A stretch of 11,373 nt of DNA from a virus. Lineage: Duplodnaviria; Heunggongvirae; Uroviricota; Caudoviricetes. How positions within the stretch are numbered: position 1 is the first letter of the stretch; every line of letters starts with the position of its first letter. The notes beneath the pieces are model-generated. The model saw only the letters and a program-made list of their open reading frames with translations. It was not told the DNA's origin and did not search any database. Positions 1 to 11,373 of the stretch are shown one piece after another. The position numbers and the translations under genes are program-made. The stretch spans positions 1-11,373 of the IMG/VR virus record IMGVR_UViG_2654587772_000004, one strand, 5' to 3'.

Positions 1-1158
1 ATGCCGTCTCCACGATTCCGCATCCGCAAAATGACTCTCTCCCGCGCCCTGGACAAATACCTGAAAACCGTCTCCGTACACAAAAAAGGGCACCTTCAGG
101 AGTTTTATCGCGCGAATGTCATCCGACGCTACCCCATCGCACAGCGTTTCATGGACGAAATCACCACCGTGGACATCGCCGCATATCGCGATATGCGACT
201 CGCTGAAATTAATCCCCGGACCGGAAAAGCCATCACCGGCAATACCGTCCGTCTCGAGCTTGCACTGCTCTCGTCGATGTACAACATCGCCCGGGTCGAG
301 TGGGGGACATGCCGGGATAACCCCGTTGAACTGGTGCGTAAGCCCCGTGTCTCTCCGGGACGGGAACGACGTCTGACGTCTTCGGAAGAACGCAGGCTTT
401 CCCGCTATTTTCGTGAACGCAACATGTCCCTGTATGTCGCCTTTCATCTCGCGCTGGAAACCGCCATGCGACAGGGCGAGATTCTGTCACTCCGCTGGGA
501 ACACATTGACCTGCGACATGGTGTGGCTCACCTGCCGGAAACAAAGAACGGGCATTCGCGCGATGTGCCTCTCTCCCGCCGGGCGCGCAACTTCCTCCAG
601 ATGTTGCCTGTGGCGCTGCATGGCGGGGTCTTTTCCTACACCTCTTCCGGCTTCAAAAGCGCCTGGCGCATCGCCACACAGACCCTGCGCATTGAAGACC
701 TGCATTTTCACGACCTGCGCCATGAAGCTATCAGCCGTTTCTTTGAGCTCGGCAGCCTCAACGTGATGGAAATCGCTGCAATATCCGGCCACCGCTCAAT
801 GAATATGCTCAAACGCTACACACATCTCCGTGCCTGGCAGCTGGTCAGCAAGCTGGATGCCCGTCGACGCCAGACGCAGAAGGTGGCCGCCTGGTTTGTT
901 CCTTACCCCGGACACATCACCACTGACGACGGGCAGACAGTGAGAATTGATATCTGCGACTTCGACGACCTGTCCGTGACGGCGGCAACCCGGGAGGAAG
1001 CCCTGTCCCGCGCCAGTGAGGTACTGCTGCGGACACTGGCCATCGCCGCCCAGAAAGGTGAGCGCGTTCCGGCCCCCGGTGCACTCCCCGTCAATGACCC
1101 GGCGTTCGTCATGGTCTGCCCTCTGAATCCGCAGGGTGCCCTGACCGCACAGGTATAA
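1..1158 (+). CDS. Tyrosine-type site-specific recombinase/integrase (385 aa) with a ~110-aa C-terminal extension beyond the catalytic Tyr; size and layout resemble Rci-type (shufflon-specific) recombinases
   Basis: Long ORF starting at window position 1. Box I motif ...[23 protein letters not shown]..., box II ...[42 protein letters not shown]... (His-x-x-Arg and catalytic Tyr). About 110 residues follow the Tyr, which is atypical for lambda/P2/Xer integrases. Rci-like assignment is from memory only. Confidence 0.8.
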
Positions 1159-1176
1159 TGCATAACGCATACAAAG

Positions 1177-1197
1177 AGCGAGTCGCAACGACTCGCT
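1177..1197 (+). terminator. Perfect 9-bp stem / 3-nt loop hairpin (AGCGAGTCG-caa-CGACTCGCT) 19 nt after the recombinase stop; possible terminator or protein-binding dyad
   Basis: Inverted repeat read directly from sequence; no U-tract follows on the + strand, so intrinsic-terminator function is uncertain. Confidence 0.3.
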
Positions 1198-1301
1198 TAA
1201 CACATTCGATCTGCATGATCGAAATTACTCGTTTCACCACAAAAAAATGAATCGGTAAAATAACCTCATGAACTGAAAGATGTTTTTCAGGCGGAGACGT
1301 A

Positions 1302-1670
1302 ATGAAACTGAACACAACCGGCATAGCAGGTCAGCTGATGCTCTCGCTCGACAGAGACGTGATTGCCGAAAAGCTCATCCACGACCGCAGAATCAACCCC
1401 ACGCCGTTGCAGGTCCGCTACCCGCAGGGCGTCCGGGATGTGCTCGTCATGATGAGCGAACAACTGGCGATTTCTGTGGCCGATTTAACCCGTATCCTGC
1501 TTGAGGACACGCTGCACAACATGTTCCTGCCCGCCGGCAATGCCGCCGGTACCGTGGCAGAACGCCTTGAGCTGCTCATGCAGGCACACAACCTCACCGC
1601 GACAGAACTGTCGTCTCTGCTGTCGCCCTGGAATATCCGCGCCTCTGTTCTTCGGGAGCCGGAAAACTGA
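1302..1670 (+). CDS. Hypothetical protein (122 aa as written); the frame would continue to about 1873 (~190 aa) if one A were added to the A4 run at 1663-1666
   Basis: GGAG ribosome-binding site 6 nt upstream of ATG 1302. Stop TGA at 1668-1670 sits just after an AAAA run, and the +1 frame stays open to TAA at 1871-1873. No family recognised from memory. Confidence 0.5.
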   Translation: MKLNTTGIAGQLMLSLDRDVIAEKLIHDRRINPTPLQVRYPQGVRDVLVMMSEQLAISVADLTRILLEDTLHNMFLPAGNAAGTVAERLELLMQAHNLTATELSSLLSPWNIRASVLREPEN

Positions 1671-1867
1671 CAGACTGGCTGTCCCCTGACGCTCTGGGCT
1701 GGCTGGCAGACTGCTTCTGCGTCAGTCCGGACTGGCTGAGCGGGCGGGAAAGTTATCCTGTCGCCCGCGCGGGTGAATGGCCGGACAATGCAAATGCATT
1801 CCGGAAACTCATCAGTGACGAAAAAAATACGGATATTATTTTCTGGCACGGTTTTCCCGTTTGCCGG

Positions 1868-1969
1868 AAATAATGCCAGAGAATATTGCGGTGTGATATT
1901 GCGGCAATGCACACACGTAAATAATGCCAGAATATTCCCGGTACTTTCTTTATTACCGGTGGCAATGAC
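1868..1969. repeat. Imperfect tandem direct repeat (~45-50 bp units, 2 copies) in the intergenic region upstream of the outer-membrane protein gene
   Basis: Unit A 1868-1912 (aaataatgccagagaatattgcgg...gcggcaatgcac) and unit B 1919-1969 (aaataatgccagaatattcccgg...ggtggcaatgacag) share the AAATAATGCCAGA(G)AATATT head and a GGCAATG tail. ATATTnCCGG-like submotifs also occur at 1882, 1896, 1931, 1951 and 2081. Confidence 0.5.
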
Positions 1970-2218
1970 AGAAGAAATTAATTTGTGGTTCTCAGGTGCC
2001 CTGAAAAGCAGGAAGCTGCCTGTGATGCCCCGGGCTGTATCCCTGCGCCCTGCTGCCGCTGAGGCACTCATTGCAGGAAGAATATTACCGGCACTCTGCC
2101 TGAACAGCGATTTATTGCCCTGGTAAAAAAAAACCGGGCAAACCAGCAGTAAAAAAATAATGGCACTTCGTGTCACGGGACTGTGTTGTCTTAAATCCGG
2201 AAAACAGGAAATTAAAAA

Positions 2219-3424
2219 ATGCAGAAAAAATATATTTCGCGCACGCTGATTGCTTCCGCCGTTTTATTTTCTTTTAATGCGATGGCAGCAACTTCATATT
2301 TTGAAGCACGCAATGATTGCAATGGGTGGCACCGGGGTGGCATCCTCCCATTATGGTGTGGCTCCTCTGGCAAACCCGGCTTTACTGACAAAGCACAACA
2401 GCAATGATGATTTCAGCCTGTTACTGCCGTCCGTGGGCGCACAACTGTCAGACCCGAACGACATCGCTAACAAAGCCGATGACATTCAGGACGACTGGGA
2501 TTGCCTTCGACCGCGCGGTCGACAGCAATTACGGTGTTGACCAGGCAGCGGCAAACCTGGAGACAGCGCCTGCTGGAGTTCCGCAATATCCACGCTGATG
2601 CGCAGGTGGGTGTTTCTGCCGTTGCGGCACTGCCGAATGACACGCTGCCGGTTGCCCTGATGGTGAAATCCTACGGTACGGTCAGCGTTGACGGCAAAGT
2701 CAGCGACGCCGATCTGGACTATCTGGAGAAAGTCGCCAACGGCACAATCACGGATGTGGACAAAAACGCGCTCACCTCCCGCGCGTATGGTCGTGCCGCA
2801 GTGGTCACTGATGTGGGTATTTCCTTTGCAAAAGAACTGGAAACCGTCGGTCAGAAATGGTCACTGGGCTTCACCCCCAAATACCAGCGCGTGGACCTGT
2901 TCAACTACAACGTCTCCGTGCGCGATTACGACAGCAGCAACTTTGACGGCGACAAATACCACAACACGAAAAACGGCGTGAACGCCGACATCGGGGCATA
3001 CACCGACCTCGATGACAACTGGACGCTGGGTCTGGTTGCGCAGAACCTCATTTTCCGCGCAGCATCGACACGAAAGTGGTCGACGGCGTGAAGGAACCTA
3101 CAGAATCCGTCCGCAGGCCACTGCCGGTGTGTCCTGGCACAACGACCTGTTCAACCACTGCACTTGATGTTGACCTGACGCCGGCCAGCGGATTCACCTC
3201 CGACAGCAAACGTCAGTTCGCCAGCATCGGCGCAGAATTCAACGCCTGGAAATGGACACAACTGCGTGCCGGTTATCGTCAGAACATGGCGAACAACAGT
3301 GGCAGCGCATTCACGGCAAGGTGTCGGAATTTCACCGTTTGATGTGGTTCACCTGGACATCGCCGGTCTGGTCGGTACTGACCATGACTACGGTGCGATG
3401 GCCCAGCTGCAGTTCACCTTCTGA
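2219..3424 (+). pseudogene. Outer-membrane beta-barrel protein gene (possibly FadL/OmpP1/TodX-like transporter family) disrupted by at least four frameshifts
   Basis: Good ribosome-binding site (AGGAA, 8 nt before ATG 2219). Signal peptide MQKKYISRTLIASAVLFSFNAMA. N-terminal ...VAPLANPALLT (NPA-type hatch motif) and C-terminal ...GAMAQLQFTF ending in Phe, typical of beta-barrel proteins. The reading frame hops between all three + frames (ORFs 2219-2407, 2250-2540, 2404-2598, 2501-3091, 3076-3342, then the frame ending 3424). Family assignment is tentative. Confidence 0.5.
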
Positions 3425-3474
3425 TGAACATGCCCCCCGCTCCCGGGGGTATTCTGCAACTGAACTGACAGTTA

Positions 3475-3926
3475 TGCGTATCCTCAAAAATCGCTTTCAT
3501 CTTGTGCTGGCAGGCGTCTCACTCGCGATCGTGTGTTTCCTGTACTTTTCGGCCCGCCATGTACCGGAAATATCCCCGGATGCCGTGGCCGAACGCAGTC
3601 ACTCCGCCCGTATTCTGATCCTGATTCGACACGGGAGAACGTTGTGACCGCTCCGACAATCCATGCTCAGCCGGCCCTTCCGGCATTACCATTCCCGGTG
3701 CATATCGTGGCGTGGAAATACGGAACACAGTTCAGAAAGCACATACCGTTGTATGCCCTGTACGCCACGGGATACCGTCAGAACAATACAGACAGCCCGT
3801 TACTTTGGCAGACAGGAAGCTCAGGTCATTAAAGCACTGGGATATTGTGATGAACGCCTGCTCCCGCTTCTGAGGTCATTATCAGAAAGCACGCAGGAAG
3901 GCGTTTCCGTTATTTTTCACGCATAA
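3475..3926 (+). pseudogene. ais/pmrG-like periplasmic histidine phosphatase (LPS core heptose(II)-phosphate phosphatase family) gene with about three frameshifts and a 3' truncation
   Basis: N-terminal membrane/signal segment MRILKNRFHLVLAGVSLAIVCFLYF. RHG motif (ILILIRHG) followed, after a 1-nt shift at ~3636, by ERCDRSDNPC...GITIPG, then ...DTVRTIQTARYFG... and ...VSVIFHA in other frames. These match my recollection of E. coli Ais (…FRHAERCDRSTNQC…GITVKG…NTVRTIQSATWF…NIVIFTHNH…). The ORF stops where the homolog would continue for roughly 40 more residues. Confidence 0.55.
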
Positions 3927-4837
3927 TCACAGCCATCGTGTCGGCCAGCACCTGCGCGGTGCGGGTGTAGTTTTCAAAGAGGAACAGCGGGTCATCAGAG
4001 CAGGTACGGTTACCCCAGAAGCGGAAACCGTCGCGGCGAATCAGCGTAGTGACGCCTGACTCATTAAGCAGGTCAGCATCGGTGCCGGACTCCTGCAAAT
4101 CCCAGAATACAGAGGCGCTGATGCCGGTAACACCGTTCACCCCGACGTTGGACAGCGTTTTATGCCAGCCCTGCTCCTGGTCGATTTTAGCGCGCAGACC
4201 CAGCGCACGGGCGGTGGCATACGCGGTGGCGGTGGTACTGGTGACCGTATCCCATGCGAGGAAATCCGGCCAGATGACCATCAGCTCACGCTGGCTGAAA
4301 TTCTGGCGGTAGGCTTTCACCTCGGAAATGGTCTTACAGCCCCATGCGCTGATATATCCGAAAGCGCGCAGCTTCTGACAGACTGATGCCAGTGCAACAG
4401 CCACCTCTTTGGTGTCCAGTCCCGGCACGCCGAGAATACGCGGTTTAACACCGGTAACAGACTCCGCCGCCAGCAGGGCTTTCAGTCCGGTGTACTGACC
4501 GTTTTCGTCGGTGGTGCCGATGATATTGGAAACAGTCTGCGCGAGTTTCGTTTCCTCGTCGTCGCCGGTGCCGTCTTCCACACGCACGACAAACGGTGAC
4601 CGGTTTTGACTGGTCGGCGATGGCCTGCAACGATGCCGCCAGCGTGCCTTTTTTACCGGCCTTTGCAATTGCGCTCTGCACATTGGTAATCAGCACAGGT
4701 TTATTGAGGGGGAAGGTTTCCGCATCCGCATCGCTGGCCGTGCAGACCATGCCGACAATGGCAGTGGATACGGTGGAAATGACGCGGGTGCCGTCGTTAA
4801 TCTCCAGCACCTGCACGCCGTGATGATAGTCACTCAT
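3910..4837 (-). pseudogene. Phage tail sheath protein (P2 gpFI-like), frameshifted at ~4590 and 3'-truncated
   Basis: N-terminal ORF (4445-4837) [57 protein letters not shown]...QSKPVTV is sheath-like. The frame then shifts at an AAA/TTT run (~4590-4592) into ORF 3910-4683 (...[18 protein letters not shown]...[18 protein letters not shown]...). Total about 309 codons versus roughly 390-400 for P2-type sheaths. GGAG ribosome-binding site upstream of the ATG at 4835-4837. Confidence 0.85.
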
Positions 4838-4896
4838 CCGTTTAACTCCGTGGTTAATGGGTGAGTGATATTTTCAGTTGTGCCGGAGATGTCAGG

Positions 4897-5490
4897 CTAT
4901 TTGTCCCGGTTGGCTAAGGGATGACACAATTTATTCTTTATCGCTGATGAGGGAAATTTTTTATAGAGCGTGGACAGGCCAATATCAAAAATCAGTGCCA
5001 CGCGTTGACGTGACTCCCCTGCAGCCAGCAAACGCCCGACCTGCTCCCACTCACTCGTGGTGAGTTTAGGACGTCTGCCACCAATACGACCTTTGGCTCT
5101 GGCCGCTTCCAGCCCGGCCCGAGTCCGTTCGACAATGAGTTCTCGTTCCATTTCAGCCAGGGCACCCATCACATGAAAGAAAAAACGCCCCATCGGCGTG
5201 CTGGTATCAATAGCATCTGTCAGGCTGCGAAAATTAATGCCGCGTTCGCGCAGTTCCTCAACCAGAATGACCAGATGCCGCATACTACGCCCCAGCCTGT
5301 CCAGCTTCCAGACTACCAGAGTGTCACCTGCTGATAATGTTCTGAGCAGTTTTTTCAGCCCCGGTCGGTCGGACTTCGTGCCGCTGATTTTATCCTCAAA
5401 AATCAGCTCACATCCTGCGCACTCGAGCGCGTTACGCTGCAATTCCGTGTTCTGGTCATTTGTTGATACACGAACATAACCTATACGCAT
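4897..5490 (-). CDS. pin: Serine DNA invertase of the Pin/Gin/Cin/Hin family (197 aa)
   Basis: MRIGYVRVSTNDQNT... (catalytic Ser in GYVRVSTNDQ), resolvase core ...LVVWKLDRLGRS..., ...MGRFFFHVMGALAEMERELIVERT..., C-terminal helix-turn-helix ...ALIFDIGLSTLYKKF... Lies next to an invertible tail-fibre segment. AGGGA ribosome-binding site 6 nt upstream of the ATG. Confidence 0.92.
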   Translation of the reverse strand: MRIGYVRVSTNDQNTELQRNALECAGCELIFEDKISGTKSDRPGLKKLLRTLSAGDTLVVWKLDRLGRSMRHLVILVEELRERGINFRSLTDAIDTSTPMGRFFFHVMGALAEMERELIVERTRAGLEAARAKGRIGGRRPKLTTSEWEQVGRLLAAGESRQRVALIFDIGLSTLYKKFPSSAIKNKLCHPLANRDK

Positions 5491-5651
5491 AAAAATCCCT
5501 ATAAAAACAGAATAATGACACAGAATTATCTATATATGTACAAGCGGACAAGGCTATGGAGCTCTCAGTTACAGTAATCTTGCTGGATAAGAATATTTAC
5601 TGATAGTGGATACATAGCCCACTTAGCATTCCCATGTGAAACAAATAAGTA

Positions 5652-5660
5652 TGGTAAGAT
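5652..5660 (+). promoter_or_regulatory. Candidate extended -10 element (TGgTAAGAT) for the 5689-6006 ORF
   Basis: Sequence tatGGTAAGAT about 30 nt upstream of the ATG in an AT-rich stretch; no strong -35 identified. By-eye prediction only. Confidence 0.25.
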
Positions 5661-5688
5661 AGGTTGACCTCAATAAAAGGAAAATCTG

Positions 5689-6006
5689 ATGAACATCGAT
5701 ACCAATAAAAAAACTACCACACTGAAATATTTTGTCGAAGCCTATCCAGAGAGAATCACTGTTCAAGCGTGGGAACGCCTAGTCAATGAAATTGGTGATT
5801 TAAAAGAAGTTTATGGATATATCGCCTTTCTGCATGACGATGGGTATCTTACAGGAAAGGTAATCTTCGATGGTTCTCCTGAAAGTATTGATGGATGGAG
5901 TGTAGATACTGCCTCTCTAAGGATTACATCACAAGGTTATCATTATTGGAAAAAATTAAACCCTACAACACAAGGGAGTAGCGGAATCCTCAGAAGGAAC
6001 AGATAA
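5689..6006 (+). CDS. Hypothetical 105-aa protein of unknown function encoded in an AT-rich insertion (moron) between pin and the invertible segment
   Basis: Intact ORF with AAGGA ribosome-binding site 7 nt upstream of the ATG. Region 5491-6132 is visibly AT-rich (roughly one-third G+C by eye) against >50% G+C flanks. Followed by a 14-bp-stem hairpin. No signal peptide or transmembrane segment. No family recognised from memory. Confidence 0.65.
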   Translation: MNIDTNKKTTTLKYFVEAYPERITVQAWERLVNEIGDLKEVYGYIAFLHDDGYLTGKVIFDGSPESIDGWSVDTASLRITSQGYHYWKKLNPTTQGSSGILRRNR

Positions 6007-6012
6007 CTAATA

Positions 6013-6044
6013 AAGATGGTAGCACCATTTGGTGTTACCATCTT
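6013..6044 (+). terminator. Stem-loop (14-bp stem with one G-U pair, 4-nt loop) 7 nt downstream of the 105-aa ORF stop; putative terminator
   Basis: AAGATGGTAGCACC-attt-GGTGTTACCATCTT read directly from sequence. The downstream tract is A-rich rather than U-rich on the + strand and T-rich on the opposite strand, so it may act bidirectionally or weakly. Confidence 0.4.
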
Positions 6045-6132
6045 AAAATATACCGTTACAATCAGCACTTTCCATTTTTATCTAACAATCAATACTAGGA
6101 CACTCCCTTCTTTCAACATCATATTTAACCGA

Positions 6133-6158
6133 TTCCATAAAACGTTGGTTTGGGAGAA
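6133..6158. promoter_or_regulatory. Left crossover site (hix/gix/pix-like 26-bp site) of the invertible tail-fibre segment
   Basis: TTCCATAAAACG-TT-GGTTTGGGAGAA. Its inner half-site GGTTTGGGAGAA matches the inner half of the right site at 11/12 positions in inverted orientation, and the overall 12-2-12 architecture resembles hixL (TTATCAAAAACC-TT-GGTTTTCAAGAA). Confidence 0.75.
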
Positions 6159-6644
6159 GGTTCTGCGTTGCCTGTTGGCATACCAGTTCCTTGGCCTTCA
6201 GCTACGCCGCCAACAGGCTGGCTGAAATGCAACGGGGCTGCTTTTTCGGCTGAAGAATACCCGGAACTGGCAAAGGCTTACCCGACAAATAAATTGCCTG
6301 ATTTACGTGGTGAGTTTATTCGTGGCTGGGATGACGGGCGGGGGATTGATACAGGTCGCTCTATTTTAAGTATTCAGGGGTATGCAACGGAGGATCATGC
6401 TCATGGATTACCGTCAAGATCCACGATTGTGACTGATGCAACGATTAATTTCTATTTTGATGAAAGCTGGGTAAATAGTGGCACTGACATTATCAAAAGA
6501 GGAAACACAAACGATGCTGGATTACCAGCACCGGATTATGGAACCTTTAAAACATATAAACAATCAGTGGCTGGTTTAGGTGCCGCAGCCTCAGAAACGC
6601 GTCCGCGTAATATTGCATTTAACTATATCGTGAGGGCAGCCTGA
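6147..6644 (+). CDS. Alternative tail-fibre C-terminal variable segment (Sv'-type), promoterless and start-less in the present orientation
   Basis: Open frame begins immediately after the crossover core with no ATG (the ORF track uses TTG at 6150). C-terminus ...AGLGAAASETRPRNIAFNYIVRAA resembles the ends of Mu S / P1 S-type fibres (from memory). After inversion it would fuse in frame to the constant part of H (...AGLLAYLG-LGEGSALPVGIPVPWPSATPPTGW...). Confidence 0.75.
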   Translation, partial: GLGEGSALPVGIPVPWPSATPPTGWLKCNGAAFSAEEYPELAKAYPTNKLPDLRGEFIRGWDDGRGIDTGRSILSIQGYATEDHAHGLPSRSTIVTDATINFYFDESWVNSGTDIIKRGNTNDAGLPAPDYGTFKTYKQSVAGLGAAASETRPRNIAFNYIVRAA

Positions 6645-7246
6645 TGCATAAAGCAATATTAAATAGTGAGCTCATTGCAACAAAGGCAGGGGATGTTACC
6701 GTTTATAACTATGATGGTGAAACACGGGAATATATTTCCACTTCAAATGAATATCTTGCCGTTGGTGTCGGCATTCCGGCATGTTCCTGTTTAGATGCCC
6801 CTGGCACACATAAGGCTGGTTATGCAATCTGCCGTTCTGCAGATTTTAACTCATGGGAATATGTGCCAGACCATCGCGGTGAAACGGTCTATAGCACCGA
6901 AACAGGAGAATCAAAAGAAATCACCGCTCCGGGTGATTACCCTGAAAATACAACCACTATCGCCCCATTAACGCCATATGATAAATGGGATGGTGAGAAA
7001 TGGGTGACGGATACCGAGGCACAGCATAGCGCCGCAGTAGATGCAGCAGAAGCACAGCGCCAGTCGCTGATTGATACTGCAATGGCTTCCATCAGTCTGA
7101 TTCAACTGAAATTGCAGGCCGGACGTAAACTGACGCAGGCAGAAACAACCCGGCTTAACGCTGTGCTGGATTACATTGACGCGGTGACGGCAACAGATAC
7201 CAGCACCGCGCCGGATGTCATCTGGCCTGAACTGCCGGAGGCGTAG
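6644..7246 (+). CDS. Tail-fibre assembly chaperone (Tfa / Mu U-like), partner of the alternative fibre segment
   Basis: 200-aa ORF whose ATG overlaps the upstream stop (TGATG). C-terminus ...LNAVLDYIDAVTATDTSTAPDVIWPELPEA shares the conserved Tfa C-terminal motif with the convergent gene at 7218-7670. Confidence 0.8.
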   Translation: MHKAILNSELIATKAGDVTVYNYDGETREYISTSNEYLAVGVGIPACSCLDAPGTHKAGYAICRSADFNSWEYVPDHRGETVYSTETGESKEITAPGDYPENTTTIAPLTPYDKWDGEKWVTDTEAQHSAAVDAAEAQRQSLIDTAMASISLIQLKLQAGRKLTQAETTRLNAVLDYIDAVTATDTSTAPDVIWPELPEA

Positions 7247-7670
7247 GCCATTCAATATCTGGTGCACTGGAGGTATCAACCAGCTCCAGTGCATCCAGAT
7301 AATCCAGCCACAAATTATATTGCGCCAGTTCCTCACCTTTCAGACGACCAATAGCGGCTTTACCGGGCCATTGCTTACTGTTCATGTATTCGTTGGCCTG
7401 GTTAATTAGTAGCTGTCTTTCTGATTCAGTAATTTCAATAAGCTCTTCATGCGTGGGTGGAGGAATATCTGCCCACGCAGGCAGCCCATCATCTCCGGCA
7501 ATACGGATTTTTCCTTGTGGCGGTTCAGCCATAAACTCACTGATAATATTTTGATTTACTTCCTTAGCGTCTGATAAATCCCATCCCTCTGATTTATATT
7601 TATCAATCATATCCACAGGGAAAAAAGCATTATGCCTTGCGCTATAAACATATTCGTTCATATAAATCAC
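7218..7670 (-). CDS. Tail-fibre assembly chaperone (Tfa / P2 gpG-like), partner of the currently expressed fibre
   Basis: 150-aa ORF directly downstream of the fibre gene on the minus strand. C-terminus ...LWLDYLDALELVDTSSAPDIEWPTPPAVQAR. The 3' ends of the two convergent Tfa genes overlap by 29 bp (7218-7246). Confidence 0.8.
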   Translation of the reverse strand: MIYMNEYVYSARHNAFFPVDMIDKYKSEGWDLSDAKEVNQNIISEFMAEPPQGKIRIAGDDGLPAWADIPPPTHEELIEITESERQLLINQANEYMNSKQWPGKAAIGRLKGEELAQYNLWLDYLDALELVDTSSAPDIEWPTPPAVQAR

Positions 7671-7681
7671 CCTGAATAAAA

Positions 7682-8881
7682 TTACTCACCAACAGCCCAC
7701 CAACTGTAATTCATCGATACCGTGTCGCTGGTTGATGACGTTCTGTAAGCAGAATTAAAGCCGGTTAACGTTGGGCCTTCTGCAGTCATCACGAACCCTC
7801 GCCCAGCGCCTAAAGGCGCACCGCCATCACCAGAATGAGTAAGCATGGCGCAGTCCGCTTTTTTGGGGAAAGGGATGCTGAATGTAATTCTCATTGTTTG
7901 CGTCGATAATGTCGGCGTAACCGCACCACGACCATATTGCAGGATTTTCCCGTTGGGTAATTTCATCCATCCATCACCACTGGCAAAAGAGGCCATGTCC
8001 GGTATCTGATTTTCCCCTGTCCCCACATCCCGTTTTGCCGCTTCTCTCAAACCAAGGTATGCGAGAAGACCAGCTACATCCTTTCCACTCAAATGAGTCA
8101 GCGTCTCATCCAGTGGCTGCTTACCTGACAGCGCATTGTTAATGGTGGTGCTGAATTTCGGGTCATTGTTAATGGCCGCGGCAATTTCTTTCAGTGTGTC
8201 CAGTGTGGCTGGCGCACCGTTAATCAGAGCGGTAATAGCGGCCTGAACAAACTCAGTGGTCGCAATCCGCGTGGTGTTATTTCCTGCGGCAGGCGTCGGC
8301 GCTTTTGGTTCTCCGGTAAATGTCGGATTATGTTTCTGCGCATACTGGGTATGAGGATCCTGTGCGGCAATGTGGTTTCTCATCTGGTCATCCACATACA
8401 GCTTTAATTCCAGGACTTCATCATCCACGTATTTACGGGTCGCCAGTACCACCGACGGGTCGATTTTCAGCGTGATAGCTTCGGTATTCGTGACAACCAG
8501 AATCATGCGGATAGTCTGGGTACGACCACTGCCTTCCTGCAACTGCGGTTTGTACGTTTCCGGGCAGTTCGCCACCGCAATGAGTACGCCTTCATCATCA
8601 TAAAGCCCAATCTCACGGATCCAGAATCCGCCCTCGTTCTCAGGGATGATTTGCTCCGCAATAATCTGGCTCTGGTTGTTCGGGTCAACACTCAGAAGAT
8701 TCAGCGGCGCGATGCGTTTCTGGTTAATCAGTTTTGTCTGTGCCGGGTCTGGTGTCGGCAAGACACCATTCGCATCACCAACGGCCATTTGCGTCAGATT
8801 CAGCTTACTGCCGAGCATCGTCGCGTTAGCCAGCCGTGCTGCGCCCTGATTAGTCAGAATGGCGTAGTATTTCACTGTCAT
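7682..8881 (-). CDS. Phage tail fibre protein (P2 gpH-like), 399 aa; constant N-terminal part (~275 aa) plus the currently joined variable C-terminal part
   Basis: Lies between the baseplate gene and the Tfa gene in the canonical P2 order. Its ATG overlaps the upstream gene's stop (ATGA). Contains the right crossover site at codons ~272-280 (...AGLLAYLGLREAAKRD...). Confidence 0.85.
   Translation of the reverse strand: MTVKYYAILTNQGAARLANATMLGSKLNLTQMAVGDANGVLPTPDPAQTKLINQKRIAPLNLLSVDPNNQSQIIAEQIIPENEGGFWIREIGLYDDEGVLIAVANCPETYKPQLQEGSGRTQTIRMILVVTNTEAITLKIDPSVVLATRKYVDDEVLELKLYVDDQMRNHIAAQDPHTQYAQKHNPTFTGEPKAPTPAAGNNTTRIATTEFVQAAITALINGAPATLDTLKEIAAAINNDPKFSTTINNALSGKQPLDETLTHLSGKDVAGLLAYLGLREAAKRDVGTGENQIPDMASFASGDGWMKLPNGKILQYGRGAVTPTLSTQTMRITFSIPFPKKADCAMLTHSGDGGAPLGAGRGFVMTAEGPTLTGFNSAYRTSSTSDTVSMNYSWWAVGE
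8042..8067. promoter_or_regulatory. Right crossover site of the invertible segment, located inside the tail-fibre gene
   Basis: Top strand TTCTCTCAAACC-AA-GGTATGCGAGAA; bottom strand TTCTCGCATACC-TT-GGTTTGAGAGAA. Shares the core dinucleotide and the conserved inner half-site with the left site. Confidence 0.75.
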
Positions 8882-9489
8882 GCGTTTACTCTCAGGTTAT
8901 CAATTAAATGAATGGCCGAGGCCGGGAAATAATCCCCTCCGACAATAATGGCCTCCGGGGTGTAGGGATAAACCGTCAGGGCGTCGCCGTGATAGCATCC
9001 CGCACCGGCAAAAATGTTGCCGGTTGTACTTAAACTGATAGCCAGTCCCGTCAGATGGCGGCTCGCCGGTTTTGCATCAGCAACGAGGCGCTCCAGCTCC
9101 TGATACATTTCTTCGGTAATACCCTGCTCAAGCACGCCAACAACGATACGGAACGTCCCCGGCTCCTCGTTGAGCTGCCACCACTCCCTCACCTCAATCA
9201 GATAGCCGAGCGGCTCCACCACACGCCGGATTGCACCTATAGTGCCTTTATGACAGTGAATGAAATACGCATCGCGGATAACAGCGCGTTTTGTCGCTTC
9301 CGGCCACTTATCATCCCAGCGGTCAACCGAAAATGACCACGCCAGCCACGGCAGCAGATTTGCCTGGCAGGTATCCGGGTTCCACAGTTCACGAATACTG
9401 ACCGGCGTTTTTTCAATTTCCGCACAGGCTTTTGCGGCGGCGACTTCAAGCGGTGATGAGCCGGTCGGCAGCAGGCGCGAATCACTCAT
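8878..9489 (-). CDS. Phage baseplate protein, P2 gpI-like (203 aa)
   Basis: MSDSRLLPTGSSPLEVAAAKACAEIEKTPVSIRELWNPDTCQANLLPWLAWSFSVDRWDDKWPEATKRAVIRDAYFIHCHKGT... matches my recollection of P2 gpI; synteny J-I-H; translationally coupled to H. Confidence 0.85.
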   Translation of the reverse strand: MSDSRLLPTGSSPLEVAAAKACAEIEKTPVSIRELWNPDTCQANLLPWLAWSFSVDRWDDKWPEATKRAVIRDAYFIHCHKGTIGAIRRVVEPLGYLIEVREWWQLNEEPGTFRIVVGVLEQGITEEMYQELERLVADAKPASRHLTGLAISLSTTGNIFAGAGCYHGDALTVYPYTPEAIIVGGDYFPASAIHLIDNLRVNA

Positions 9490-10389
9490 CCGAGCCTCCG
9501 GTCACGACGCGGTATTCGGTGCAGAAAGACGCCTGCGTGCTGTTAAGCACGATATCGGCCAGCGGTGCAGCCAGTTCGACACGCTGCACGCCTTCCACAT
9601 GCAAAGCGGCATAAATGGCAGACAGACGGATGTCGCGCCCCAGCCGGTGCTGTGCCGTGACGTACGCTTCCAGTTTTTTCACGGCGGCGGCGCGGATGGG
9701 TTCGCTTTCGGGACCAGGGTAAAGGTAAAGCGTGGCGTTTATCTGGTATTCAACGATGGCGGCAGACTGCACGGTCACGCGGTCGGCCACCGGCCTGACG
9801 TCCTCGCCATTAAGGGCGTTACGCACCACCGCCAGCAGGTCTTCGGATGCGACACCGTTATTTTCACGTGACAGCACAGAGATGGTGACGCAGGCCGGAG
9901 AAGGACTGGTGACAGAGATATCCGCGACACGCCCGTCGGCACTTCGACCATGATACTGATAGGCCCCACCGACCCGGCGACGCTTAAACCTTCAAACGCC
10001 TGCTGAATACGCAGACGATAATCGGTGTCAGACTCCATCACTGCCGGTGTCGGCGGGATAGTCGAATCATCTGCCGGGGTGATAATCAGGCGCGTGGTGT
10101 TGTAATTGGCACCAATCACATCAAGGTCATTACCGGCGGCACAGGCCAGCATCACCGCCCGTGCGGCCTCATTCACACGCTGACGCCAGATAAGCTCACG
10201 ATAAGCATTTTCCTCCAGCAGTTTGACGAGAGGCTCGGATTCCAGCGTCAGGGTACGGGCGACCGCCTCCTGCTGGTCTTCCGGGTAAAGGGAAATCAGT
10301 GTCGCCTTGCGTTCGGCAAGAATGGTTTCAAAGTCCAGCTCCTCGACCACATCCGGTGCGGGTAGCTGGTTCAGGTCGATAATCGGCAT
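9482..10389 (-). pseudogene. Phage baseplate assembly protein J (P2 gpJ-like), split by a single-nucleotide frameshift in a G/C run at ~9964-9967
   Basis: N-terminal ORF 9775-10389 (MPIIDLNQLPAPDVVEELDFETILAERKATLISLYPEDQQ...SVAGSVG) and C-terminal ORF 9482-9877 (...SRENNGVASEDLLAVVRNALNGEDVRPV...YRVVTGGSDE) are both gpJ-like. In the +1 frame across the junction the sequence reads GAYQYHGRSADGRVADISV..., so adding one G to the GGGG run would restore a single ORF. Confidence 0.8.
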
Positions 10390-10393
10390 GGTT

Positions 10394-10741
10394 TCAACTC
10401 ACAGGGATGGTTAACGAAAGTGGCTGGCCGGTGTCGTTGTGCTGGCCGGTTAACGTGACCGTCATTCGCCCGTCAAAACTGCGCTCAGTGGTGACGGATG
10501 ACAGGGTGACGCGGGGTTCCCATTTCAGCACCGCCATGTAACAGGCGACCTTAATCTGCAACTCAAGCGCCGGGGTCTGCGGCTGGTCAATCATTGACTC
10601 CAGCAACGAGCCGTAATCACGACGCATCACCCGTGAGCCGACCGGTGTGCGCAGGATATCGCCGATACTCTGGCTGATATGCTCAAGGTCAGTGACAGTC
10701 AGGCCATCACTGCGATTCATTCCGAGATAACGCGCTGTCAT
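10394..10741 (-). CDS. Phage baseplate wedge protein, P2 gpW / T4 gp25-like (115 aa)
   Basis: Size, position between V and J, and sequence (MTARYLGMNRSDGLTVTDLEHISQSIGDILRTPVGSRVMRRDYGSLLESMIDQP...) typical of gpW. Start overlaps the stop of V (ATGA). Confidence 0.85.
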   Translation of the reverse strand: MTARYLGMNRSDGLTVTDLEHISQSIGDILRTPVGSRVMRRDYGSLLESMIDQPQTPALELQIKVACYMAVLKWEPRVTLSSVTTERSFDGRMTVTLTGQHNDTGQPLSLTIPVS

Positions 10742-11373
10742 AGAGGACTCCCGGTTGTGCCGCCGCTGTCGCCGGGGTGTTTATGGGTATGCAGTACCTT
10801 ACCGTTTGATGAGAGTTCACCGCCGGTGTGTTCAATGTTGCCGCGCATCGTCCCGCCCTTCTGCACTTCCAGCGTGCCGGTAATCAGCCTGTTGGTGCAG
10901 ACCACCTCCGGTGTGTCCAGGGTGACGCGGGTTGATGCTTTCACCGTGACCACCGGCACCGTGGCAGTAACAGAATCAGAAGCCGTCACGCTGGCCGTTT
11001 TAATTCCGCTTACCGTGAGTGCACTGGTTTCGGGTTCATACTCAATCACCGCCCCGTCAGGGAAACGGATATGCAGGGCATCCGCCGACGCAGACGGCGC
11101 GGGGTTATCGCCGGAATAAATCCCCGGCAGAACAAACGCCGTGTCAAGTTCACCGCCCACGGCCAGAATCAGCACCTGCTCCCCCACGGAAGGTGCCCAC
11201 CATGTGCGCGAACGCCCGGCACGACAGGTCAGCCACTGAAGCCAGTCGGTGCACATGCCGCCGGTCTGCACACGGCAGCGACCGGCGTTAAGGTCGGTTT
11301 CGATGATAATGCCGGTGCGAATCATGTTGCGCAGTGCGCGCGCGAGTTCCTGAATATTTGCGAGAGTGTTCAT
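10738..11373 (-). CDS. Phage baseplate assembly/spike protein, P2 gpV-like (211 aa)
   Basis: Full ORF whose ATG is the last three bases of the window (reverse strand). Sequence (MNTLANIQELARALRNMIRTGIIIETDLNAGRCRVQTGGMCTDWLQWL...) and position upstream of W fit gpV. Confidence 0.85.
   Translation of the reverse strand: MNTLANIQELARALRNMIRTGIIIETDLNAGRCRVQTGGMCTDWLQWLTCRAGRSRTWWAPSVGEQVLILAVGGELDTAFVLPGIYSGDNPAPSASADALHIRFPDGAVIEYEPETSALTVSGIKTASVTASDSVTATVPVVTVKASTRVTLDTPEVVCTNRLITGTLEVQKGGTMRGNIEHTGGELSSNGKVLHTHKHPGDSGGTTGSPL

What the first reader, a model, noticed from the sequence alone, without database searches (positions are those of the whole stretch)
5491..6132. Intact AT-rich moron with a 105-aa ORF inserted between the invertase pin and its crossover site, in the P2 tail-fibre/sheath hotspot
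About 640 bp of strongly AT-rich DNA sits exactly where P2-like phages carry variable cargo (between the tail-fibre genes and the sheath gene; in P2 this position holds Z/fun). It encodes one intact 105-aa protein (MNIDTNKKTTTLKYFVEAYPERITVQAWERLVNEIGDLKEVYGYIAFLHDDGYLTGKVIFDGSPESIDGWSVDTASLRITSQGYHYWKKLNPTTQGSSGILRRNR) with a good ribosome-binding site, a plausible promoter and a downstream hairpin. It is intact while the neighbouring sheath, J, outer-membrane and ais-like genes are decayed, which suggests selection. Its compositional contrast with the flanks suggests recent horizontal acquisition. The insertion also separates pin from its crossover site, which are normally adjacent or overlapping, and the gene is divergently transcribed from pin across a shared AT-rich control region. 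I do not recognise the protein; a small cytoplasmic protein here is a plausible superinfection-exclusion, anti-phage or anti-defence factor.
Basis: partly seen in the sequence, partly recalled or inferred. Interest (0 to 1): 0.75.

Follow-up and report, generated by a model that had tools for sequence, protein, structure and literature searches.

The report
Winged-helix moron beside prophage invertase
A 586-bp AT-rich cassette carrying its own promoter and one small gene for an uncharacterised winged-helix protein has been inserted between the tail-fibre invertase gene and its recombination site in a P2-like E. coli prophage; it is a real, selected accessory gene of an ordinary kind, and its function is still unknown.

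Summary
Window 5491-6132 is 36% GC against 53% in the flanks, and it carries an intact 105-aa ORF (5689-6006, +).

- **Insertion:** An uninterrupted pin/crossover-site junction occurs in 753 complete E. coli genomes. Comparison with it defines a 586-bp insertion (5523-6108), present in only 24 of 5426 genomes.
- **Real gene:** dN/dS against a 76%-identical Citrobacter homologue is 0.23. An extended -10 promoter (TGnTAAAAT-like) lies upstream of all eight homologues examined.
- **Mobility:** The gene travels alone between different phage accessory-gene spots.
- **Inversion still works:** The 1.9-kb tail-fibre segment is exactly flipped in a sister assembly of the same strain.
- **What fails:** The argument "intact while neighbours decay" does not stand. 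The frameshifts are two single-base homopolymer indels, with no mismatch over 7.4 kb, relative to an intact copy of the prophage. The window copy sits in a suspicious chimeric stretch of IncI plasmid genes.

Function is untested. I favour a lysogen-expressed nucleic-acid- or protein-binding accessory factor. Verdict: a new member of a known kind (a moron in the P2 Z/fun hotspot), of modest interest.

The parts
4897..5490 (-). pin-like serine DNA invertase, 197 aa, intact
   Evidence: Pfam Resolvase E 4e-52 and HTH_7 E 4e-13. It is 86.8% identical at DNA level to K-12 e14 pinE across the junction query.
5491..5522 (.). Native 32 bp upstream of the pin ATG, retained to the left of the insertion point
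   Evidence: Identical to the empty-site sequence in O157:H7 TR01 (L003).
5523..6108 (+). Inserted moron block, 586 bp, 37% GC. A GACAC microhomology lies near both junctions (5517-5521 and 6099-6103). There are no IS-like ends.
   Evidence: Empty-site alignment. The uninterrupted junction is found in 753 genomes and the insert in 24. GC.
5652..5660 (+). Extended -10 promoter element TGGTAAGAT
   Evidence: TGnTA(A/T)AAT lies 34-81 nt upstream of the start codon in all 8 homologue loci. It was missed by the -35/-10 scan.
5677..5681 (+). Shine-Dalgarno AAGGA, 7 nt before the ATG
   Evidence: Sequence. AAAGGAG is conserved in homologues.
5689..6006 (+). 105-aa ORF encoding a winged-helix protein with an acidic core and a basic C-terminal tail (GILRRNR)
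6013..6044 (+). Hairpin, 14-bp stem and 4-nt loop, 7 nt after the stop codon, with no U-tract
   Evidence: z -5.5. Not called as a terminator.
6133..6158 (+). Crossover site 1: TTCCATAAAACG TT GGTTTGGGAGAA
   Evidence: The inversion breakpoint in the sister assembly falls here.
6145..8055 (.). Invertible tail-fibre segment. It holds the alternative fibre C-terminus (6150-6644, +), two tail-fibre assembly genes (6644-7246 + and 7218-7670 -), and the current H C-terminus (7682-8054, -).
   Evidence: Pfam Collar, Caudo_TAP x2 and Gp53-like_C. Window 6145-8058 is exactly inverted in NZ_CP007394.
8042..8067 (-). Crossover site 2 inside tail-fibre gene H: TTCTCGCATACC TT GGTTTGAGAGAA

Best explanation
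The block is a classical prophage 'moron': a self-contained promoter-gene-hairpin cassette of foreign, AT-rich composition. It was inserted by illegitimate recombination into the 56-bp gap between the pin invertase gene and its crossover site, in the tail-fibre/sheath (Z/fun) hotspot of a P2-like prophage.

**Shown**
- It is an insertion relative to a widespread empty site.
- Its single gene is under purifying selection.
- The gene moves on its own between several phage accessory-gene hotspots: after tail-fibre genes, after the lysis cassette, and in a satellite-like element.
- It always carries an extended -10 promoter.
- It is oriented against the adjacent phage late genes in the tail-fibre and lysis contexts.
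- Its product is predicted to fold as a stand-alone winged helix of the YjcQ/PadR/MarR type.
- The insertion has not stopped tail-fibre inversion.

**Inferred**
- The gene is transcribed in the lysogen from its own promoter.
- The protein acts in trans as a small binding factor. It would use the highly conserved helix-3/wing surface together with the conserved arginine-rich C-terminal tail (G-x-[IL]-R-R-x-R) to bind nucleic acid.
- This would modulate transcription of host or incoming-phage genes to the benefit of the lysogen, for example by exclusion of competitors.
- It is not part of the inversion machinery.
- Because everything more than 32 bp upstream of the pin ATG is now cassette DNA, pin expression must now depend on sequences in the cassette or in those 32 bp.

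**Confidence by step**
- Moron encoding a real winged-helix accessory protein: about 0.85.
- Nucleic-acid-binding regulator mechanism: about 0.4.
For: **Insertion**
- Empty-site alignment with O157:H7 TR01.
- A synthetic empty junction is contiguous in 753 genomes, including K-12 e14. The block is in only 24 of 5426 genomes at 97-100% identity, always next to pin.

**Composition**
- 0.37 against 0.53 GC. Homologue coding sequences are 0.34-0.44 against locus values of 0.45-0.53.

**Selection**
- dN/dS 0.23 at dS 0.60. For more distant pairs, pS is about 0.8 (saturated) and pN 0.25-0.32.

**Independent mobility**
- Homologues lie next to tail-fibre assembly genes of three different tail modules, one of them between sheath and tfa.
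- Others lie after a lysis cassette, between terminase and lysis genes, and in a D5-primase satellite-like element.

**Promoter**
- TGnTA(A/T)AAT is found in 8 of 8 loci.

**Fold**
- AF2 pLDDT 82.8, pTM 0.70.
- Foldseek PDB and BFVD top hits are PadR- and YjcQ-like.
- Weak Pfam YjcQ hits, E 0.0047, in 3-4 members.

**Conserved C-terminal basic motif:**

**Inversion still active**
- Window 6145-8058 is exactly inverted in sister assembly NZ_CP007394.
- This is consistent with enhancers working over kb distances (PMC3798978).
Against: - There is no expression data.
- The -35/-10 scan found no promoter upstream of the ORF.
- The hairpin lacks a U-tract.
- The folded core is acidic (pI 5.2, charge -3.3). 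The family pI is 4.5-7.0, and helix 3 has no conserved basic residues. That is atypical for a sequence-specific DNA binder.
- No operator-like inverted repeat is conserved in its own promoter.
- There is no significant sequence match to any named DNA-binding family.
- The winged-helix fold is also used for protein-protein contacts.
- The first AF2 model, from 6 sequences, was poor (pLDDT 50). The fold therefore rests on a 13-sequence alignment.
Confidence: 0.6

Rival explanations
1. The protein binds a protein, not nucleic acid. It would be a small acidic winged-helix adaptor whose conserved C-terminal RRxR peptide, or its helix-3 surface, sequesters or inhibits a host or phage protein. That would give exclusion of other phages or inhibition of a host defence.
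For: - Acidic core (pI 5.2), family pI 4.5-7.0, and no conserved basic residue on the putative recognition helix.
- A conserved terminal motif sits after a variable low-complexity linker, which resembles a short linear motif.
- Hotspot neighbours include defence cargo: Pycsar in the same prophage, and HipA_2+DUF3037 beside a homologue.
- The Z/fun hotspot is known for defence genes.
Against: - No match to any PADLOC model.
- No partner was identified.
- The best structural neighbours are nearly all DNA-binding regulators.
- Its position against the flow of late genes, with a constitutive-type promoter, fits lysogen expression. That argues against an early-lytic anti-defence role, though not against exclusion.
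Confidence: 0.25
2. It is an accessory factor or regulator of the pin inversion switch. It would control pin expression or inversion frequency through the shared divergent region.
For: - It lies immediately next to pin and is divergently oriented from it.
- The insertion replaced pin's upstream region beyond 32 bp.
- One metagenomic ORF (P0008) fuses an invertase N-terminus to a homologue fragment.
Against: - Homologues in seven other contexts have no invertase nearby.
- 753 genomes, including e14, run the same pin switch without it.
- No operator-like repeat lies in the shared region.
- P0008 sits on a 1.3-kb contig truncated by an IS and looks like a rearrangement or a chimera.
Confidence: 0.05
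3. It is an orphaned half of a two-gene module, such as a toxin-antitoxin-like or regulator-effector pair, retained here without its partner.
For: The 46%-identical Citrobacter cluster (P0007) always sits 65 bp upstream of, and co-oriented with, a DUF2442 gene in a non-phage chromosomal island.
Against: - All other contexts examined lack DUF2442 or any recurrent neighbour.
- The window has no second ORF in the cassette.
- Purifying selection persists in the solo state.
Confidence: 0.07
4. It is hitch-hiking AT-rich DNA with a fortuitous or no-longer-functional ORF.
For: - There is no functional annotation anywhere: every source calls it 'hypothetical'.
- It is rare, in 24 of 5426 complete E. 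coli genomes.
- It is absent from 50,697 phage records.
Against: - dN/dS 0.23, with the reading frame kept at 25-85% protein identity across Enterobacterales.
- Conserved promoter and ribosome-binding site.
- A confident fold prediction.
- The exact protein is seen on 717 contigs.
Confidence: 0.03

Closest known systems
P2 Z/fun hotspot cargo (the variable region between the tail-fibre genes H/G and the sheath gene FI of P2-like phages)
   Same: Same genomic slot in a P2-like tail module. One homologue (L012) sits exactly between the sheath and tail-fibre assembly genes. The hotspot is described as mixed-purpose and often holds an invertase plus other cargo.
   Different: No sequence relation to any described cargo was found (PADLOC, PHROG, Pfam all negative). 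Here the cargo lies inside the invertase unit, between pin and its crossover site.
Lambdoid 'morons' (promoter-gene-terminator cassettes such as lambda bor and lom; Hendrix/Juhala concept, from my own knowledge)
   Same: It is inserted between genes that are adjacent in relatives. It has its own promoter, a downstream hairpin, deviant base composition, and an orientation against the late operon.
   Different: The product is a cytoplasmic winged-helix protein, not a membrane or surface protein. The hairpin lacks a U-tract. Expression in the lysogen has not been shown.
YjcQ (PF09639; B. subtilis prophage-region protein, NMR structure 2HGC)
   Different: The window protein itself has no Pfam YjcQ hit even at E up to 10. 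It has an extra C-terminal helix, a linker and a basic tail. YjcQ itself has no known function, so the resemblance does not transfer a mechanism.
PadR/MarR-type winged-helix transcription regulators (e.g. 3nrv, 5x11) and the Reut_B4095 putative DNA-binding protein (2obp)
   Different: No sequence-level membership. It lacks the MarR dimerisation helices. It has an acidic core and no conserved operator in its own promoter.
Din-family invertible tail-fibre switches (Mu Gin/G, P1 Cin/C, e14 Pin/P, Salmonella Hin)
   Same: This is the host structure into which the cassette is inserted: a serine invertase, 26-bp inverted crossover sites resembling hix/gix (AAAAC-NN-GGTTT core), alternative fibre C-termini each with its own assembly gene, and an observed flip.
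   Different: A 586-bp foreign gene cassette separates the invertase gene (and presumably its internal enhancer) from the nearest crossover site. That gap is 642 bp instead of 56 bp.

Membership tests
Moron (phage accessory cassette) | Lies between two elements that are adjacent in related phages | tested here: met
   Empty-site alignment. Contiguous junction in 753 genomes against the insert in 24.
Moron (phage accessory cassette) | Own promoter | tested here: inconclusive
   A conserved extended -10, TGnTA(A/T)AAT, is present in 8 of 8 loci. The consensus scan was negative, and there is no transcript evidence.
Moron (phage accessory cassette) | Own terminator | tested here: inconclusive
   A strong hairpin at 6013-6044 without a U-tract, not called by the scan. 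Some homologues have canonical terminators downstream.
Moron (phage accessory cassette) | Base composition different from the surrounding phage genes | tested here: met
   0.37 against 0.53 GC. The same trend is seen in all homologue loci.
Moron (phage accessory cassette) | Expressed from the repressed prophage | not testable with these tools
   Needs RNA-seq or a reporter in a lysogen.
P2 Z/fun hotspot cargo | Located between the tail-fibre genes and the sheath gene of a P2-like tail module | tested here: met
   The order is sheath, pin, cassette, invertible fibre segment, H, I, J, W, V. The hotspot is described.
YjcQ (PF09639) | Sequence match above Pfam's gathering score | tested here: not met
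   The window protein has no hit at E up to 10. The best family member reaches E 0.0047.
YjcQ (PF09639) | Same fold as the solved YjcQ structure | tested here: met
MarR/PadR winged-helix transcription regulators | Winged helix-turn-helix fold | tested here: met
MarR/PadR winged-helix transcription regulators | Sequence membership (Pfam or NCBIfam) | tested here: not met
   No hits. No PDB sequence hit below E 0.09.
MarR/PadR winged-helix transcription regulators | Binds a palindromic operator, usually in its own promoter | tested here: inconclusive
   There is no inverted repeat in the window promoter region and none is conserved across loci. Binding itself cannot be tested here.
Known anti-phage defence systems (PADLOC-DB v2) | Match to a defence-protein model | tested here: not met
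   0 families at E up to 1 for the protein and three homologues.
Din-family DNA inversion system (context) | Serine invertase with Resolvase and HTH_7 domains, plus two inverted 26-bp crossover sites | tested here: met
Din-family DNA inversion system (context) | The segment is actually found in both orientations | tested here: met
   Exact inversion of 6145-8058 in sister assembly NZ_CP007394. Many insert-bearing genomes match only up to window 6159.
Din-family DNA inversion system (context) | Fis-dependent enhancer within the 5' part of the invertase gene | not tested
   Assumed from Gin, Cin and Hin (my own knowledge). The distance tolerance of enhancers is taken from PMC3798978.

The most novel reading that the evidence does not exclude
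The 105-aa protein founds a new single-gene family of prophage-encoded exclusion or defence (or counter-defence) factors. It would be a minimal winged helix with a conserved arginine-rich C-terminal peptide, expressed in lysogens. It would block competing phages by binding a phage nucleic acid or protein, and it hops between moron hotspots of unrelated Enterobacterales phages and satellites.
Probability: 0.2. Interest if true: 0.55.

Novelty: new member of a known kind. Interest (0 to 1): 0.3.

Why it matters
- **A clean test candidate.** It is a single gene with its own promoter, under selection and mobile between hotspots. That suits the phage-challenge screens that have turned P2 hotspot cargo into new defence systems.
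- **A natural experiment on inversion.** It places 586 bp between a Din-family invertase gene and its crossover site without abolishing inversion. Isogenic pairs could show whether enhancer distance or loss of pin's upstream region changes switching rate.
- **Limits.** Neither point would overturn current understanding. Small hypothetical proteins in this hotspot are common.

Tried and rejected
- **Sequence annotation.** Pfam, PHROGs, NCBIfam, PADLOC and PDB sequence searches gave nothing significant for the window protein. tblastn against 50,697 phage records gave no hit. Among plasmids there was one 32%-identical Kosakonia hit.
- **First structure model.** The model from 6 close homologues was unusable (pLDDT 50). 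It improved only after a full-library profile search added distant members.
- **AFDB fold search.** The afdb50 library was unavailable.
- **Autoregulatory operator.** I looked for one in the promoter regions of four loci and found none conserved.
- **Promoter and terminator scans.** Consensus scans gave nothing upstream of the ORF, or upstream of pin in the empty site.
- **Non-coding RNA.** Rfam gave only sub-threshold chance hits.
- **Literature.** A search for the RefSeq protein accession found no paper. Papers mentioning YjcQ gave no functional lead.
- **'Neighbouring genes decayed' as evidence of selection.** Rejected after comparison with the sister assembly.
- **Role in inversion.** Considered and largely rejected because homologues occur without invertases.

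Full report
**1. What is in the sequence**

The interval 5491-6132 is 36.1% GC. The pin gene to its left is 51.9%, and the rest of the phage part of the window is 53.4%.

To the left lies a 197-aa serine recombinase (4897-5490, -) with Resolvase and HTH_7 domains. To the right lie a tail-collar fibre C-terminal cassette (6150-6644, +), two tail-fibre assembly genes (6644-7246 + and 7218-7670 -), and the tail-fibre H gene (7682-8881, -).

A 26-bp crossover site, TTCCATAAAACG-TT-GGTTTGGGAGAA, lies at 6133-6158. Its inverted partner, TTCTCGCATACC-TT-GGTTTGAGAGAA, lies inside H at 8067-8042. From memory, both resemble hix/gix sites. This is therefore a Din-type invertible tail-fibre switch in a P2-like tail module, and the AT-rich block sits between the invertase gene and the nearer crossover site, as claimed.

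**2. Where the window comes from, and the 'decayed neighbours'**

The window is 100% identical to E. coli ST2747 assembly NZ_CP007392, positions 4975493-4986865. There the phage piece (baseplate V to a truncated sheath gene) is embedded between duplicated IncI-type pil genes. It sits next to a recombinase adjacent to the pilV shufflon, and to traE and traF.

The same strain's sister assemblies carry an intact P2-like prophage near yegQ/ogrK. Window 3930-11373 differs from that intact copy by 0 mismatches and two single-base homopolymer indels: an extra A at 4591 and a missing C at 9963. These two indels are exactly the sheath and J 'frameshifts'.

This is the signature of sequencing or assembly error, or of a very recent duplication. 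It is not gene decay. The argument that the ORF is 'intact while its neighbours decay' carries no weight.

**3. It is a genuine insertion**

In O157:H7 strain TR01 the pin ATG is followed by the same 32 bp as in the window. It then runs directly into TCTTTCAACATC...crossover site, so the gap is 56 bp in all. The window has 586 extra bases (5523-6108) at that point.

The junctions show only a GACAC microhomology. There are no IS-like ends.

I built a synthetic 'empty' junction from 332 bp of pin plus 332 bp of crossover site and collar cassette.
- It is found as one contiguous piece in 753 complete E. coli genomes, including K-12 e14 pinE at 86.8% identity.
- The block itself is present in 24 of 5426 genomes, at 97-100% identity, and always beside pin.
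- Other P2-like prophages have pin about 30 bp from the segment.
- One has an IS66 at the same spot.

The literature describes this tail-fibre/sheath (Z/fun) region of P2-like phages as a known, mixed-purpose hotspot that often holds an invertase.

**4. The gene is real and mobile on its own**

Homologues form a small family restricted to Enterobacterales. There are 14 representatives at 50% identity among 1.84 billion proteins. All are named 'hypothetical' and none has a Pfam domain. The exact protein is on 717 contigs.

Selection: against the 76%-identical Citrobacter gene, dN/dS is 0.23 at dS 0.60. For more distant pairs, synonymous sites are saturated (pS about 0.8) while pN is 0.25-0.32.

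Genomic contexts differ:

| Context |
|---|
| Convergent with the tail-fibre assembly gene of three different tail modules, one exactly between sheath and tfa |
| Convergent with a lysis cassette |
| Between terminase and lysis genes |
| Inside a D5-primase satellite-like element |
| In a Citrobacter chromosomal island, upstream of a DUF2442 gene |

No invertase is nearby in any of these.

What travels with the gene is a short upstream stretch. All eight loci have an extended -10 element, TGnTA(A/T)AAT, 34-81 nt before the start codon. In the window it is TGGTAAGAT at 5652-5660. They also share an AAGGA(G) ribosome-binding site and a coding GC below the local average.

The window has a strong hairpin after the stop codon (6013-6044, -22.5 kcal/mol, z -5.5), but it lacks a U-tract. 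Some homologues have canonical terminators.

This is the textbook anatomy of a moron.

**5. What the protein is**

With the six close homologues, AlphaFold gave a poor model (pLDDT 50). With a 13-sequence alignment that includes distant members, it gave pLDDT 82.8 and pTM 0.70.

The topology is H5-18, H25-35, H38-50, a beta-hairpin wing, H81-90, and a disordered tail.

Structural searches agree on a winged helix:
- Foldseek against PDB and BFVD agrees, with PadR and YjcQ-labelled phage proteins on top.
- At sequence level only a weak YjcQ signal appears, in 3-4 family members (E 0.0047). It does not appear for the window protein itself.

The protein has no hydrophobic segment (maximum Kyte-Doolittle 19-residue mean 0.51). 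Its core is acidic (residues 1-90, pI 5.2). Many members, including distant ones, share a basic C-terminal motif G-x-(I/L)-R-R-x-R after a variable linker.

**6. How it most likely works**

Shown:
- It is a foreign cassette.
- It is under purifying selection.
- It has its own conserved promoter motif.
- It is predicted to fold as a winged helix.
- It is independent of the invertase.

Inferred:
- It is expressed in the lysogen.
- It acts in trans through the conserved helix-3/wing surface and the arginine-rich tail.

My preferred reading (about 0.4) is a small nucleic-acid-binding regulator that alters transcription of host or incoming-phage genes. The main rival (about 0.25) is a protein-binding inhibitor. 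The acidic core and the lack of conserved basic residues on helix 3 favour that rival.

A role in inversion is unlikely (about 0.05). An orphaned two-gene module is possible but weakly supported (about 0.07). No PADLOC model matches, and no autoregulatory operator is conserved.

**7. Consequence for the switch**

The insertion moves pin, and presumably the enhancer inside its 5' end (by analogy with Gin, Cin and Hin), from 56 bp to 642 bp from the crossover site. It also replaces everything beyond 32 bp upstream of the pin ATG.

Inversion still happens. In sister assembly NZ_CP007394, window 6145-8058 is exactly inverted while the flanks stay collinear. Most other insert-bearing genomes match only up to window 6159.

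This agrees with the known ability of Fis-bound enhancers to act over kilobases. Longer enhancer-site loops are reported to permit processive strand exchange (PMC3798978), so switching behaviour could be altered. I did not test this.

**8. Verdict**

The selection argument given is wrong, although selection is shown by other means. The proposed function remains untested.

This is a new, uncharacterised member of a well-known kind of element, so interest is modest (0.3). If the protein proved to be a new minimal exclusion or defence factor (probability about 0.2), interest would rise to about 0.55.

Noticed in passing
window 1-3929 (L002 1-9930): The left third of the window is IncI-plasmid-type DNA. 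It holds a 385-aa tyrosine recombinase next to the pilV shufflon (Rci-like by position), traE (frameshifted) and traF (split). It is joined abruptly to a truncated sheath gene at about 3930. In NZ_CP007392 the phage fragment is flanked on both sides by duplicated pil genes. This looks like a chimeric assembly or a very recent rearrangement.
   Followed up: partly
window 4591 and 9963: The only differences from the intact prophage of sister assembly NZ_CP007393 over 7445 bp are two 1-bp homopolymer indels (AAA against AA; CCCC against CCCCC). They create the sheath and baseplate-J frameshifts.
   Followed up: yes
L001 15076-16978 (just right of the window end, beyond gene V): The intact prophage carries a Pycsar defence pair (cyclase plus effector) as cargo between baseplate V and the virion morphogenesis gene. 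In the window's own assembly (L002 17474-19135) the cyclase is split and the effector truncated.
   Followed up: no
window 7682-8881 (-): The tail-fibre H gene is one intact 399-aa ORF. RefSeq annotates it as a separate 'gp53-like domain protein' plus an 'incomplete' tail-protein pseudogene. This is probably an annotation artefact of the chimeric, invertible fibre.
   Followed up: partly
L028 127-414 (protein P0008): A metagenomic ORF fuses the first ~52 residues of a serine invertase in frame to residues ~27-69 of a homologue of the moron protein. It lies next to an IS3-type transposase on a 1.3-kb contig. It is either a rearrangement or an assembly chimera, and it hints that invertase and this gene are neighbours elsewhere too.
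   Followed up: partly
L017 5001-5607, also L018 and L019: The 46%-identical Citrobacter homologue sits in a non-phage chromosomal island, 65 bp upstream of a co-oriented DUF2442 gene. This may be a two-gene module.
   Followed up: no
L005 4152-5707: In one Citrobacter prophage a HipA_2 plus DUF3037 gene pair is inserted right next to the homologue. The spot is therefore itself a variable cargo site.
   Followed up: no
L016 3813-6149: An IS66-family element is inserted at the 5' end of pin in E. coli P21_SE1_04.20. This is the same place as the moron in the window.
   Followed up: no
window 6074-6047 (-) and 6035-6062 (+): The only two consensus sigma-70-like sites in 5300-6300 lie downstream of the ORF, around the hairpin. 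The minus-strand one would read antisense through the ORF towards pin. The count is no more than expected by chance.
   Followed up: no
protein residues 91-105, window 5959-6003: A C-terminal G-x-(I/L)-R-R-x-R motif follows a variable Ser/Thr/Gly/Pro-rich linker. It is conserved even in members only 25-30% identical. It could be a short linear binding motif, a nucleic-acid-binding arm or a degradation signal.
   Followed up: partly
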